Positions 15,646 to 63,616 of a stretch of 64,000 nt of DNA are shown piece by piece (position 1 is the first letter of the stretch; every line of letters starts with the position of its first letter). A program made the translations under genes and the position numbers. The notes below the pieces were generated by a model. That model did no database searches. It saw nothing but the letters and a program-made list of their open reading frames with translations, and was not told the origin of the DNA. The stretch comes from Eledone cirrhosa (Eukaryota), in assembly GCA_964016885.1 (NCBI GenBank), contig OZ024741.1, positions 232,810,001 to 232,874,000 of the forward strand, in the 5' to 3' direction.

Positions 15646-15681
15646 CTTCTGAAAAGCAGAAGAACTGCGAAACCGGTAAAG
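15646..15681 (+). ncRNA. Degenerate minimal type-I hammerhead ribozyme (core CUGAAAA, G8>A)
   Basis: ctt-CTGAAAA-gcag aagaa ctgc-GAAA-ccgg-TA-aag. Confidence 0.6.
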
Positions 15682-15894
15682 GAACCAAATAAATATATAC
15701 ATTTTTTTTAAATAAGACTCCAGTTGCATTTTCGATTTCATCTTTTTTTCTTTATACTTTCACTCGTGGACACCTCGGTTATTTTTCATTTTGTAAAAAA
15801 AACCTCACTTTCTAATATATATATATATACATATATATATATGAAAGACGTAAAATAAGAAAATTATAATAAATAACTGACTTACTTAAGTTTC

Positions 15895-15972
15895 ACTCCA
15901 ACTAAATAGTTTCTGAAAGGGGATATACATAGTGTTCAAAATCATGGAGAATTCCTTTCTTCATCAGGGAGT
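15895..15972 (-). ncRNA. Type-I hammerhead ribozyme, core intact
   Basis: Minus strand: actcc-CTGATGA-a gaaagg...cctttc a-GAAA-ctatttag-TT-ggagt. Stem I actcc/ggagt is perfect; triplet GUU. Confidence 0.75.
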
Positions 15973-16671
15973 CAATTCTCTGCTAAGATCCCTGGCGATA
16001 GGCGGACACAGGGATCTCAAAAAAGAAATTCAGTGAATGGAAAAGAAGCAAGTGCGAACTAAATTTCAAGCACTGAAAATTTCACTACCTTCCCGGTCAG
16101 TGGCAAATTCAAAAGAATCAATCACGTGACATCGAGGTTAATCAGTGATGAGTGGGGTGTTAAAAAGACAGTAGCCAATTACTATGAATCATAGCAGTAA
16201 TTCAGGCAAATTTTCGCTCAACAAATAATTTGGAGACAATTATAAAGAATTAGTATATCTACCAACATATTTATACAGAAGTATACTTATGCTAGCAAGA
16301 TATAAGGTTTGTCTTAGTAACTTTGTGGTTCAATACAAAAATGTAGAACAATTATATGAAAGACGTAAAATAAGAAAATTATAATAATTAACTGACTTAC
16401 TTAAGTTTCACTCCAACTTATTAGTTTCTGAAAGGGGATATACATAGTGTTCAAAACCATGGAGAATTCTTTTCTTTTTAACACCCCACTCCTCACTGAT
16501 TAACCTCGATGTCACGTGATTGATTCTTTTGAATTTGCCATTGACCGGGAAGGTAGTGAAATTTTCAGTGTCACGAAATTTAGTCCGCGCTTGATTCTTT
16601 TCCATTCACTGAATTATTTTTGTTTGAGATCCCTGTGTCCGCCTATCGCCAGGGATCTTAGCAGAGAATTG

Positions 16672-16749
16672 ACTCCCTGATAAAGAAAGGAATTATCCAT
16701 GGTTTTGAACACTATGTATATCCCCTTTCAGAAATTAATTAGTTGGAGT
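16672..16749 (+). ncRNA. Inverted copy of the 15895 hammerhead with mutated core (CUGAUAA)
   Basis: actcc-CTGATAA-agaaagg...cctttca-GAAA-ttaattag-TT-ggagt. Confidence 0.65.
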
Positions 16750-16968
16750 GAAACTTAAGTAAGTTAATTATTATAATTTTCTTATTTTACGTCTTTCATA
16801 TAATTGGTCTACATTTTTGTATTGAACCACAAAGTTACTAAGACAAAACCTATATCTTGCTAGTATAAGTATACTTCTGTATAAATATGTTGGTAGATAT
16901 ACTAATTCTTTATATATATATATATATATTGAAAAATTGGTTGAATTTTACTTGTTCTGCTTATCTTA

Positions 16969-17411
16969 ATATATATATATATATATATATATATATATAT
17001 ATATATATATATATATATATATATATATATATATATATGTATATGTATATGTATATATATATATATATATATATATATATATATATATATGTATATGTAT
17101 ATATATATATATATATATATATATATATATATATATATATGTATATATATGTATGTATATGTATATATATATATATATATATATGTATATGTATATGTAT
17201 ATATATATATATATATATGTATATGTATATATATATATATATATATATATATATATGTATATGTATATATATATATATATATATATATATATATATATAT
17301 ATATATATATATGTATATATATATATATATATATATATATATATATATATATATATATATATTATTATATATATATATATATATATATATATATATATAT
17401 ATATATATATA
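16969..17411. repeat. Long (TA)n/(TATATG)n microsatellite
   Basis: Seen directly. Confidence 0.97.
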
Positions 17412-17826
17412 GTTGTGTTGGTTCACCACTGGATAGAATTGGTCATTCCGTATGGTCAATCTCGATGTAATATTTTGGAGAGTATTCAACGTAATGCAGC
17501 TCACCCGTCTTCGTTTGTGTAGTTGGTGGTGCGAGTACGGAACACTTGAGGGCGACCGACTAAGGTAGAAGATGCTAGATGGTCGGTCGTCCTCTTGTTT
17601 ATGATTTTCAGCCCCATGGATTTTGTCTGTTATATTCCTTTGTTATATTTCGAATACCTGATGATATCACCGGATTCATACGGAACCCGGTCATTGTAAT
17701 GATCATAGTATAATAAACCTTTCAAGGATTTACACAAGTCCAGCCTCCTGTTATTTTATTATATATAAATATCTTTATATATATTAATAGATGTATTAAA
17801 TATTTATCTCTCTATTCAATCTCCAG

Positions 17827-17970
17827 GGTTATACCATCACTTTTTAGCAATAGAGGATCCCAATTCTGTTTTTAGTACCACTTCAACCAACTGTCAAATT
17901 CTACCATTTAAATACTCTTTTAAGTTTCATTTACGAATACACACCATAAAAGGTTCTGGAAGCTTTTCTG
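17827..17970 (+). CDS. Host gene internal exon b
   Basis: ctccag|...|gtgagt; 144 nt; phase 1-1; open in frame after exon a: RLYHHFLAIEDPNSVFSTTSTNCQILPFKYSFKFHLRIHTIKGSGSFS. Confidence 0.68.
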
Positions 17971-60622: not shown

Positions 60623-60941
60623 ATTATGACCTATAAAAACTAACACCCTCCCATCCCCTCTGGCTTTCGGCTGACTGCCACAGTAGTGATGGGTAGCAGT
60701 AAACTTTGGTAGGGCATAGGTGGGCCATTGTTTTGGCTGAGAGGGTGAACTGACAGCGAATTTCGTTGAAATCTGCGGTGGCTAATGGTCAACTTCCTTC
60801 GGACATGCGCTTGCGCAGACCGGTGGGGGTGAATTGGTACTCACAAGGGAACGGATGAAAAACCCAAAAGCACGAACTTCATCCGTTCCCATGTCGATTC
60901 AATTTGGATTGCCTCGGAAACATAACCTTATTATGTAACAA

Positions 60942-61015
60942 GCTGTCTGATGATGTTACGACACTCGCACACAGAACAGTGTGGCCAGTGTCGTCATTGA
61001 AATATATATCACAGC
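60942..61015 (+). ncRNA. Type-I hammerhead ribozyme, core intact, base of stem II mismatched
   Basis: gctgt-CTGATGA-tgtt acgacact...agtgtcgt catt-GAAA-tatata-TC-acagc. Confidence 0.68.
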
Positions 61016-61383
61016 ATTATTATTAAAGGACTTGAACATCTGAAACTACTTCGCTTTTCCTTATTCGATATTTACTCCGTCACTCCTATGTGTAAAAAGT
61101 ACGTTGAATGCTTGAATTGAATTGCATCAATGTTTACCCTAATATATATATATATATATATATATAAATAAATACAATATATATATATATAAATACATAT
61201 ATAAATACAATATATATATATATATATATATATATATATATATATATATATATATATATATATATATATATATGCATTTATGAATATATTTGTGTATGTC
61301 GATGAAATATCTAGACAATTTCTTGATATTTCATCTACACATATTGACACGTCTCTTTTATTCTTCTTCTATTAACTAAACAG

Positions 61384-61581
61384 GGTGGAGGAATCAATAT
61401 TTTTCTGTTGCTGTTAACTCAGGTCCTAATGGTAAGCTGGTAAAACTGTATCAAAGTGCACAGCATGAATACTTGCTTGGAATCGTCAAACTTAGATTTA
61501 AGAAACCAGCCCTAGGGGATACTGTCGCCATCTCTAATCACTTCCGTAACAGGCTTACTTTGTGTGAAGTCGAGGTTATAG
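61384..61581 (+). CDS. Host gene internal exon f: F-type lectin-like domain, second half
   Basis: aaacag|...|gtgagt; 198 nt; phase 1-1; RWRNQYFSVAVNSG...GDTVAISNHFRNRLTLCEVEVI. An alternative in-phase acceptor lies at 61422/61423. Confidence 0.88.
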
Positions 61582-61989
61582 GTGAGTAAAACTCTATTAA
61601 ATTCACCAATTCAATCAACTAATTTCTCGAATATTATATTACTTTAACAGGTTTTACTCATTGGACTTCAGCTATTAGTGGGGCACACCAACAATACAAT
61701 GCCAGTAAATATTTATATATGCTACTTATTTCATAGATGTATATTAGTGTGTCGTAAAACAGGGGGGAGATGAGATGAGAGGTGGGTTTAAGTAAGTAGG
61801 AAGAATATGCTTTGACAACCGATGCAGTATGTGTTTTTGTCTGTAGAGATCGAATGGCTTTTTTGATGATTATAATCATCAAAAACGCATGAATAATTAT
61901 TCATGCGTTTTATGCTTCGACGCCAAGAGTTCAAGATAACATCTCTAGTATGATTATCTACCAAGATTAGTGAGCTTGCCCAGCCCATG

Positions 61990-62565
61990 AAACAAGATGG
62001 CGTACGGCAGAAAAAAGGAGAGACACAAAATACCAAATTAGTCACTGAGGAGGTCGCAGAATGTGCGACCAAAGAGCTTTGACAATAAATTAACAAACAT
62101 CCGATTATTAAACAAACCAACTGGAAATGTGTAATAAATTGAATGGAGAACAAACAGGTACGTGAGTTTTTATTGGCAACATGACCATTCCAAAATATAA
62201 TAAAATCACTTTCAATACACGTTTTCAGATAAGAAATCTTACAAAACAAATACAAAAGTGAAGTATATGTACATATAACACGCGCACACACACACACACA
62301 CACACACACACACACACACACACACACACACACACACACACACACACATATATATATATATATATATATATATTGTTATGCTTTGGGAGGGTCATGTTGC
62401 CAATAAGACACACGCACCAGTGTTTTCACTCCAATTTATTATAAATTAAATTTATAAATTTAAGAATTTATAATTTTCCGGTTGGTTGTTTCCATAACCG
62501 GACGGTTGTTCATATATTGTTAAAGTTCTTTCGTCACACATTCTGTGACCTCTTCAGTGACTGGG
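61990..62565. mobile_element. Penelope-like pseudo-LTR remnants in opposite orientations, each with a hammerhead motif (62041-62083 +, 62519-62561 -)
   Basis: +: gtca-CTGAGGA-ggtcgca gaatg tgcgac-CAAA-gagc-TT-tgac; -: gtca-CTGAAGA-ggtcaca gaatg tgtgac-GAAA-gaac-TT-taac. Confidence 0.7.
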
Positions 62566-62640
62566 AATATATATATATATATATAACGGCGATGAATTAG
62601 TTTTGCGAGGTTTTTTATATGAAATCGTGTGTCGAAACAA

Positions 62641-63616
62641 ATATTGTTATACTTGGGGAGGGTCATATTTGTGTAATATTGCCAGAATTAATAACAGAAC
62701 ACACTCACTGTTTGGTTGGTTTTCGCTTTTCGCTTCTGTGTCTTTTATATCGGTAATCTAATCTATTCGGTCCCCAATGTTGCCATTGACTGACCGACGG
62801 TCAAAAATAATACAGATACAATATAGACACAAACACTATATATAGTTTATCAAAGTTCTTTCGTTGCACATCTACAACATCGTCAGTGGTGCTATTGTTT
62901 CCTCCCGTTACATTGTATGTCTACGCCATTTTTATTTAGTCTGTCTATATATTTATTTATTTATTTGTTTTTTTGTTTATTTTATTTTGTCTTCTTTGCG
63001 CATGCGTTTGCGTGTGTGTATAGTGTTTTGTTTGGTGTGTATTCGTGATTGTATTCTATGTATTCTATGTATTCTATCTTTACTAGTGTGTGTTTATATG
63101 TGTTTGTTGTTATTGTGCTTGTGTATGTATTTATTTATTTATTTATTTATTTATTTATACTTCTCTTAGGTCAGTGTTGTTTGTTTGGGTGTTGTTGTTA
63201 TTCCATTCATTCTTTCTGTTTAGTCTTGGCCTTCTAAGTTCTATTTCACTGGCCTCTCTGATTTGCCTATCTGCTGGGTCATTTCTATGTTTAGATATTA
63301 TTCTAATTTCTATGTTGTCTATAAAAATGGCGTAGACATACAATGTAACGGGAGGAAACAATAGCACCACTGACGTTGTTGCAGATGTGCAACGAATGAA
63401 CTTTGATAAACTATATATATGTGTTTGTGTCTATATTGTATCTGTATTATTTTTGACCGTTGGTCAGTCAATGGCAACATTGAGGACCGAATAAATTAGA
63501 TTACCGATATAAAAGACACAGAAGCGAAAAGCGAAAACCAACCAAACAGTGAGTGTGTTCTGTTATTAATTCTGGCAATATTACACAAATATGACCCTCC
63601 CCAAGTATAATAATAT
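62641..63616 (-). mobile_element. 5'-truncated Penelope-like element with inverted ~295-bp pseudo-LTRs
   Basis: 62641-62935 is the near reverse complement of 63321-63616. The internal minus-strand peptide DRQIREASEIELRRPRLNRKNE resembles a GIY-YIG C-terminus. Hammerheads at 62849-62890 (-) and 63366-63408 (+). Confidence 0.82.

What the first reader, a model, noticed from the sequence alone, without database searches (positions are those of the whole stretch)
15646..63408. Hammerhead ribozymes sense to the host pre-mRNA are preferentially core-mutated, antisense ones mostly intact
Seen: in three oppositely oriented related pairs, the minus copy keeps CUGANGA/GAAA while the plus copy has a core substitution: 15895(-) vs 16672(+, CUGAUAA); 62519(-) vs 62041(+, CAAA); 62849(-) vs 63366(+, CUGACGU and GAAU). 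Other plus copies at 15646 (CUGAAAA) and 17658 (GGAA) are also mutated. Minus copies at 25316, 25840 and 58767 are intact, although two minus remnants (~20950, ~24785) are decayed. The two plus copies with intact cores are either locked in a palindrome (25911) or have a mismatched stem II base (60942). Known: G8, A9, G12 and A13 are essential core positions. Inference: selection removes self-cleavage from the host transcript. The sample is small.
Basis: partly seen in the sequence, partly recalled or inferred. Interest (0 to 1): 0.72.

Follow-up and report, generated by a model that had tools for sequence, protein, structure and literature searches.

The report
Penelope hammerheads avoid host sense strand
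The self-cutting-RNA motifs in these introns are real leftovers of what are likely Penelope-type jumping genes; across 53 other genes the copies facing with the gene are not more often broken, but lone intact copies are about half as common in that direction, likely because insertions that would cut the host transcript are weeded out.

Summary
The hammerhead motifs are real and lie in introns of a predicted plus-strand gene.

I tested the claim in 1.96 Mb of introns from 53 other genes. Preferential core mutation was not reproduced: 24/97 sense against 35/148 antisense copies are core-mutated (p=0.88). Of 37 inverted pairs, 2 are mutated on the sense side only and 2 on the antisense side only.

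A related effect appeared. Unpaired core-intact copies are 35 sense to 77 antisense (gene-level p=0.006), and 5:31 for strong folds. Strong folds masked in a fold-back (22:20), broken copies (39:48) and flank-only pieces (43:37) show no clear bias. So intact sense copies are missing rather than mutated. Selection against exposed self-cleavage is likeliest. An insertion-direction bias is not excluded (short arms of pairs lie 19 antisense to 12 sense), and a small pre-set replication gave 4:4.

The scan noted the same idea in a mussel (unproven) and found no bias across ten genes of this genome. Cleavage is untested.

The parts
13561..13628 (-).
15104..15134 (-).
15649..15678 (+). Hammerhead of a U3-A8 family with U3C
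15900..15967 (-). Hammerhead with intact core; arm 15838-16168 of an inverted repeat
16415..16476 (-).
16677..16744 (+). Hammerhead with G8A; arm 16473-16802, predicted to pair with the upstream antisense arm
17658..17707 (+). Hammerhead with A13U (relatives read GAAA)
20941..20972 (-). Decayed hammerhead-like motif with G12A; no relative of the motif found in the intron set
24770..24800 (-). U3-A8 hammerhead with A13C, a relative of 15649
25321..25354 (-). Unpaired hammerhead with intact core
25846..25891 (-). Intact hammerhead, left arm of a fold-back palindrome
25917..25962 (+). Intact hammerhead, right arm of the palindrome; 67 of 67 nt predicted paired to the other arm
58773..58817 (-). 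Unpaired intact hammerhead ending in a TA run, upstream of and opposite to the RT remnant
59208..59880 (+). Broken Penelope-like reverse transcriptase remnant (YRDD, FLD and SNHP motifs; family label recalled)
   Evidence: (RVT_1 E=0.019, below cut-off)
60947..61010 (+). Unpaired hammerhead with intact core and eroded helix II
62045..62079 (+). Hammerhead with G12C and intact helices I and II
62523..62557 (-). Hammerhead with intact core and a helix I mismatch; 82% identical to 62045
62853..62886 (-). Hammerhead with intact core and weak helix I; arm 62641-62935
63370..63403 (+). Hammerhead with A9U and A15.1U; arm 63321-63616, predicted to pair with the upstream arm
5448..5597 (+). Predicted host exon, EGF-like
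   Evidence: (weak)
17827..17970 (+). Predicted host exon
20327..20473 (+). Predicted host exon
26173..26316 (+). Predicted host exon, cysteine-rich and EGF-like by eye (no Pfam match)
55645..55905 (+). Predicted host exon, first half of an F5/8 type C domain
61384..61581 (+). Predicted host exon, likely the second half of the F5/8 domain

Best explanation
These motifs are hammerhead-bearing ends likely left by Penelope-like retroelements in introns, the core changes seen in this window are likely ordinary decay plus chance, and the measured shortage of lone intact sense copies in other genes is likely due to purifying selection removing insertions that would cut the host pre-mRNA. Shown: motifs, pairing geometry, counts by strand. 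Predicted: in head-to-head fold-backs the antisense arm is transcribed first and pairs with the sense ribozyme, so these copies are harmless and unbiased. Inferred: a lone, well-folded sense copy cleaves the nascent transcript often enough, perhaps with help from the element's protein or a second copy, for the allele to be lost before it fixes. The outcome is absence of copies, not mutation of cores.
For: Sample: 1,957,800 bases between colinear Pfam exon hits in 53 genes. Unpaired core-intact copies are 35 sense to 77 antisense (binomial p=9e-5). Without edge copies they are 34:75, gene sign-flip p=0.006, with 22 genes leaning antisense, 11 sense and 3 tied. With extra families: 47:96, p=0.003. 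The bias held on both assembly strands and in myosin, channel and transporter genes in the first 1.78 Mb, but not in glutamate receptors (4:4). It survives leave-one-gene-out (worst p=0.0008), pair-distance and E-value changes. It grows with fold quality among unpaired copies (7:7 weakest, 3:24 strongest; logistic p=0.036) but not among paired ones. Strong folds are 5:31 unpaired against 22:20 paired (p=0.0004). Broken unpaired copies are 39:48 and 51:58 (contrast p=0.056 and 0.027); flank-only pieces are 43:37. AATAAA or donor-like motifs do not account for it. High-scoring sense survivors are more often self-masked (4 of 15 against 1 of 44, p=0.013). An engineered intronic hammerhead knocks a gene down in the sense orientation and not when flipped (PMC11856399, passages).
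Against: The pre-set replication on 183 kb gave 4:4 intact and 0:5 broken, so it did not reproduce the pattern (very small). In fold-backs the short arm, which is the same type as most lone copies, also leans antisense (19:12, p=0.28), and lone short intact copies (29:7) do not differ significantly from it (p=0.11). Intact against core-mutated alone is not significant (35:77 vs 19:28, p=0.28), and within families there is no contrast (odds ratio 0.91), so part of the fold-quality trend is a difference between families. Copies able to form helix III as monomers are not more biased than the rest (7:12 vs 28:65). One family with a weak helix I is 0:7. A schistosome minimal monomer showed no cleavage in vitro (PMC4209133) and an anole PLE hammerhead needed the element's protein (PMC11167929). 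At least 35 lone core-intact sense copies persist in conserved genes. The strong-fold subset and the unpaired/paired split were examined after the first counts. No cleavage or RNA data.
Confidence: 0.5

Rival explanations
1. Insertion-direction bias without selection: the element's enzyme primes its first (short) arm more often antisense to host transcription, so lone copies of these families lean antisense whatever their ribozyme does.
For: Arms end at two discrete 3' positions and most lone copies are the short type. Short arms in pairs lean antisense: 19:12, 26:15 by a looser measure. There is no intact/mutated contrast within families. A SINE in the same introns shows its own strand skew, 202:143 sense, and simple repeats are skewed too.
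Against: The pair lean (1.6-fold, p=0.28) is weaker than that of lone short intact copies (4-fold). Broken lone short copies in the same families are 5:6. Flank-only pieces are 43:37. The anole PLE protein cleaves and extends both strands in vitro (PMC11167929, passages).
Confidence: 0.25
2. Selection acts on some other sense-strand feature of the element end (polyadenylation, splice or pausing signal), as is known for ERVs, and the hammerhead is only a marker of a complete end.
For: Antisense bias of fixed intronic ERVs through splice and polyA signals is described (PMC6466679, passages). Many families carry AATAAA just 3' of the cleavage site. A family with a weak helix I is also biased.
Against: Copies without AATAAA within 40 nt are at least as biased (21:55) as those with it (14:22); donor-like motifs make no difference. 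The exposed longer 3' arm of fold-backs is more often sense.
Confidence: 0.12
3. One reading: sense copies fix and are then preferentially inactivated by core substitutions.
For: 3 of 4 close pairs in this window are mutated on the sense side only. In 62886/63370 both changes derived on the sense arm hit the core, while four on the antisense arm do not. Among unpaired full copies the divergence-adjusted odds ratio is 2.2 (p=0.08).
Against: Mutated fractions are equal, 24/97 vs 35/148. Mutated sense copies are fewer, not more, than mutated antisense ones (19 vs 28 unpaired). The family-stratified odds ratio is 0.91 and discordant pairs are 2:2. Two of the three sense copies are predicted to be masked anyway.
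Confidence: 0.06
4. No real strand bias: the excess is a sampling or classification artefact.
For: The replication subset gave 4:4. Introns were inferred from Pfam exon hits, not from annotation. Several subsets were examined.
Against: Gene-level permutation p=0.003-0.009 across definitions. Detection is strand-symmetric, and shuffles gave about 1 false hit per 0.58 Mb. Wrong gene orientation would dilute a bias, not create one.
Confidence: 0.07

Closest known systems
Minimal hammerheads of metazoan Penelope-like elements (Cervera and de la Pena 2014, PMC4209133; parts 1-2 of 4 read)
   Same: Type I order, extra nucleotide after A9, short palindromic helix III, U3-A8 core variant, many heterogeneous families, mostly single copies, and opposite-strand doublets 100-700 bp apart.
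   Different: The parts read give no analysis of orientation relative to host genes.
Insertion units of EN+ Penelope-like elements, including the Hydra clade (Craig et al. 2021, PMC8557442; passages and section 11; Frangieh et al. 2024, PMC11167929; passages)
   Same: Inverted 5'-truncated copy next to the element, an extension on one end only, (TA)n targets, hammerheads in the terminal repeat.
   Different: Clade not determined here. The extension between short and long arms is about 90 nt in the largest families against the 30-40 bp tail described. The link of each hammerhead family to an RT-GIY-YIG frame was not shown.
Antisense bias of fixed intronic ERVs (PMC6466679; passages)
   Same: Excess of antisense copies in introns, read as selection against sense insertions.
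   Different: There the cause is splice and polyA signals. Here the bias tracks an intact, unmasked ribozyme fold and not AATAAA.
Intron avoidance of animal retrozymes (bioRxiv 10.64898/2026.07.22.740005; passages)
   Same: Hammerhead-bearing PLE-derived repeats are under-represented in introns, read as selection.
   Different: That text has no occurrence of 'antisense', 'sense' or 'orientation', so the strand was not analysed in the main text; supplements not seen.
Engineered intronic T3H48 hammerhead, RiboFlip (PMC11856399; passages)
   Same: An intronic hammerhead silences a gene in sense and is off in antisense.
   Different: A fast engineered ribozyme; the natural minimal motifs are far weaker in the published assays.

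Membership tests
Type I minimal hammerhead (PLE min-HHR) | CUGANGA (or UUGANAA), helix II, GAAA, UH in type I order with helix I | tested here: met
   8 of 18 window motifs have intact cores; 5 pass the strict descriptor, 0 in 20 shuffles
Type I minimal hammerhead (PLE min-HHR) | Short, palindromic helix III implying dimer folding | tested here: met
   80 of 112 unpaired core-intact copies belong to models with a fully palindromic helix III; only 19 of 112 can close 2 or more extra pairs as monomers
Type I minimal hammerhead (PLE min-HHR) | Match to an Rfam hammerhead model | tested here: not met
   No hammerhead family at E<=1 in the window; not a defining feature of min-HHRs, which were found by descriptor
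Type I minimal hammerhead (PLE min-HHR) | Self-cleavage | not testable with these tools
   No assay; no RNA holder listed
EN+ Penelope-like element insertion | Inverted truncated copy joined head to head | tested here: met
   32 of 35 intronic pairs are head-to-head
EN+ Penelope-like element insertion | Extension on one end only; AT-rich or (TA)n target | tested here: met
   Two discrete 3' end positions per family, short ends running into (TA)n
EN+ Penelope-like element insertion | Hammerhead in a terminal repeat flanking an RT plus GIY-YIG frame | tested here: inconclusive
   RT remnant at 59208-59880 lies next to 58817(-) on the opposite strand; no endonuclease or second repeat found; no bridging copy in the sample
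Hydra clade of PLEs | RWK, DKT and CxCX5C motifs, no CCHH | not tested
   The remnant does not clearly cover these regions; features taken from PMC8557442 section 11
Selection-driven antisense bias of intronic retroelements | Excess of antisense copies in introns | tested here: met
   35:77 and 47:96 for unpaired core-intact copies; 4:4 in the small replication subset
Selection-driven antisense bias of intronic retroelements | Unselected insertions are unbiased | tested here: inconclusive
   Proxy: short arms of masked pairs 19 antisense to 12 sense, p=0.28
Selection-driven antisense bias of intronic retroelements | Sense copy shown to harm host transcript | not testable with these tools
   Needs a reporter or cleavage-end sequencing
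   24/97 vs 35/148, odds ratio 0.91 within families, discordant pairs 2:2; 32/130 vs 43/193

The most novel reading that the evidence does not exclude
Minimal Penelope hammerheads, which barely cut in vitro, do cleave host pre-mRNA in vivo strongly enough to be purged from introns when they face with the gene. The head-to-head fold-back that Penelope insertion often makes acts as a built-in mask that lets sense copies fix. Family-level strand bias in introns would then be a genome-written readout of which ribozyme variants are active in the cell.
Probability: 0.4. Interest if true: 0.7.

Novelty: new variant of a known kind. Interest (0 to 1): 0.45.

Why it matters
Whether the minimal hammerheads of animal Penelope elements cleave in vivo is open: PMC4209133 reports no monomer activity for the motif tested, and PMC11167929 reports protein dependence and no reads ending at the cut site. 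A strand bias confined to intact, unmasked copies would be population-genetic evidence of in vivo cleavage. It would also let ribozyme families be ranked for activity from one annotated genome. If the bias is instead set at insertion, it would show that Penelope integration senses transcription direction. The claim as first written is not supported and the window alone is ordinary.

Tried and rejected
Rfam scan: no hammerhead family, only microsatellite hits to miRNA models. The putative exon at 14.5 kb is a dispersed repeat and was dropped. A homolog search with the F5/8 exon found nothing, so no full-length host protein was available. RNA runs: no RNA holder listed; no reads were laid. PolyA-signal and splice-donor explanations were not supported. 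Monomer-capable helix III and the U3-A8 variant did not predict bias significantly. The RT remnant as an orientation control gave only 2 hits. Pair asymmetry was first read as evidence against insertion bias, then reversed when lone copies proved to be the short-arm type. Composite (TA)(TG) targets are not clearly strand-skewed (126:128 and 68:51). Rows dropped: three dynein loci that duplicate an inverted paralogue (L189, L197, L209), loci L222-L225, and the window itself in all genome counts. The intergenic control and a larger replication could not be fetched. Literature searches for a prior report of this strand bias found none; subscription journals and supplements were not seen.
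Full report
Setting. The window is G000:C2:232810001-232874000 of a 3.0 Gb genome. The only homolog of its RT remnant is labelled Octopus sinensis, so the host is taken as octopus-like (inference). Six open, phase-symmetric exons with AG/GT ends lie on plus: 5448-5597, 17827-17970, 20327-20473, 26173-26316, 61384-61581 and 55645-55905 (read; F5/8 type C). 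All motifs are therefore in predicted introns of a plus-strand EGF and F5/8 gene that has paralogues nearby. No RNA run confirms it. A putative exon at 14.5 kb is a dispersed repeat.

Observation. The motifs are real and the three pair asymmetries are as stated. The list was incomplete and partly misread. 15649(+) belongs to a family with the natural U3-A8 core (variant described in PMC4209133, parts 1-2 of 4 read), so its change is U3C, and its minus relative at 24800 is also core-mutated. 17658(+) carries A13U. Three broken minus copies were missed (13628, 15134, 16482). The complete tally is 2 of 7 sense and 6 of 11 antisense intact, p=0.37. Folding the host-sense RNA pairs 83 of 86 nt of 16677(+) and 44 of 47 nt of 63370(+) to their upstream arms, so the masking that excuses 25917(+) applies to them too. 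Still, the window is unusual: 3 of 4 close pairs are sense-only mutated against 2 of 37 elsewhere (p=0.004, post hoc), and both sense-arm changes at 63370 hit the core.

What they are. Families match the described minimal hammerheads of Penelope-like elements. In the intron sample 32 of 35 opposite-strand pairs are head to head, each family has two discrete 3' ends, and the short ends run into (TA)n. This fits the inverted copy, one-sided tail and TA targeting in PMC8557442 (passages, section 11) and PMC11167929 (passages). A broken Penelope-like RT lies at 59208-59880 (motif labels recalled), but its link to a given hammerhead family and its clade were not shown. Two 310-nt tandem arrays in the sample look like retrozymes.

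Genome test. I located exons of myosins, glutamate receptors, SNF transporters, ion channels and dyneins and took DNA between colinear same-strand hits, 1,957,800 bases in 53 genes. This is a small, non-random part of the genome, and introns are inferred. Intact folds were found by a strand-symmetric descriptor (about 1 false hit in 0.58 Mb of shuffles) and all relatives by BLAST. Core-mutated copies are 24 of 97 sense and 35 of 148 antisense (p=0.88). The family-stratified odds ratio among unpaired copies is 0.91. Of 37 inverted pairs, 30 are intact on both arms, 3 mutated on both, 2 on sense only and 2 on antisense only. Core substitution rates in the first 1.78 Mb were 0.033 and 0.028 with flank rates of 0.080 on both strands. 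Adding families missed by the strict descriptor gives 32/130 against 43/193.

What is there instead. Unpaired core-intact copies are 35 sense to 77 antisense and 47:96 in the wider set; gene-level sign-flip p is 0.006 and 0.003. Strong folds are 5:31 when unpaired and 22:20 when paired (p=0.0004). The bias rises with fold score only among unpaired copies. Broken unpaired copies (39:48; 51:58) and flank-only pieces (43:37, a noisy control) show no clear bias, and AATAAA does not explain it. Unpaired tandem doublets were antisense in 3 of 3 cases, the one sense doublet has an antisense arm upstream, and both 310-nt arrays run antisense apart from one terminal copy.

Results against. A replication fixed in the notebook beforehand covered only 183 kb and gave 4:4 intact and 0:5 broken. 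Short arms of fold-backs lean the same way as lone copies (19:12), so an insertion-direction bias could supply part or all of the effect; lone short intact copies (29:7) exceed it at p=0.11 only. Intact against core-mutated alone is p=0.28. Monomer-capable folds are not more biased. A SINE has its own 202:143 skew towards sense. Published minimal motifs cut poorly or need protein (PMC4209133, PMC11167929), and from recall intronic cleavage can be tolerated when splicing outruns it.

Mechanism. Most likely (0.5): insertions arrive in both orientations; a lone, well-folded sense end cuts nascent pre-mRNA often enough to be selected out; antisense copies, dead copies and fold-back-masked copies fix and decay at one rate. 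Counts and geometry are shown, masking is predicted, cleavage and selection are inferred. An engineered intronic hammerhead shows that such orientation-dependent knock-down is possible (PMC11856399, passages). Rivals: insertion direction (0.25), another sense signal (0.12), artefact (0.07), later core mutation (0.06).

Novelty. Antisense bias of intronic retroelements (PMC6466679, passages) and intron avoidance of retrozymes (bioRxiv 10.64898/2026.07.22.740005, passages) are described. Six searches found no report of a strand bias tied to intact, unmasked hammerheads; subscription journals and supplements were not seen. Earlier notes of this scan raised the same idea in a mussel without proof and reported no bias across ten genes of this genome; my paired copies agree with the latter and my unpaired copies do not. 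Interest 0.45.

Noticed in passing
window 29900-55100 (minus), further copies at 7700-11700 (minus) and 1-1600 (plus): A head-to-tail run of four degraded LINE copies about 6.2-7.4 kb apart (RT and endonuclease domains, 80-95% alike) fills a 29-kb intron, antisense to the host gene.
   Followed up: partly
window 14275-14457, also 5680-5938, 19138-19450, 19951-20068, 35661-36045, 39983-40166, 46103-46211, 60441-60627: An abundant SINE-like repeat. In the first 1.78 Mb of introns it lies 202 with and 143 against the gene (p=0.002; gene-level 0.03), the opposite lean to the hammerheads.
   Followed up: partly
L035 and L180 (G000:C3:169265900-169295899 and C1:66903700-66913699): Tandem 310-nt hammerhead repeats (six and two copies) antisense to the host, each ending in one inverted sense copy; they look like retrozyme arrays with Penelope-type ends.
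   Followed up: no
L001 (G000:C11:46623700-46633699), positions 3512, 3902, 4369: Two identical intact sense hammerheads 467 nt apart in a myosin intron, with one antisense arm upstream; one copy could remain exposed.
   Followed up: no
window 58773-59880: An intact antisense hammerhead end abuts a sense RT remnant that stops before any endonuclease or sense hammerhead; if they are one insertion, the sense end is the part that is missing.
   Followed up: partly
window 62853-62886 family: Several members share a helix I with only two pairs before a mismatch, yet unpaired core-intact copies of the family are 0 sense to 7 antisense in the sample.
   Followed up: partly
window 13275-13372, 23022-23090, 58517-58633, 61882-61911: Short imperfect palindromes without a recognised hammerhead, some next to TA runs.
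   Followed up: no
G000:C2:230.4-233.1 Mb, and clusters on C20 and C27: The host F5/8 exon has at least six plus-strand paralogous hits nearby, and near-identical tandem hits on other contigs, suggesting a recently expanded lectin-EGF family.
   Followed up: no
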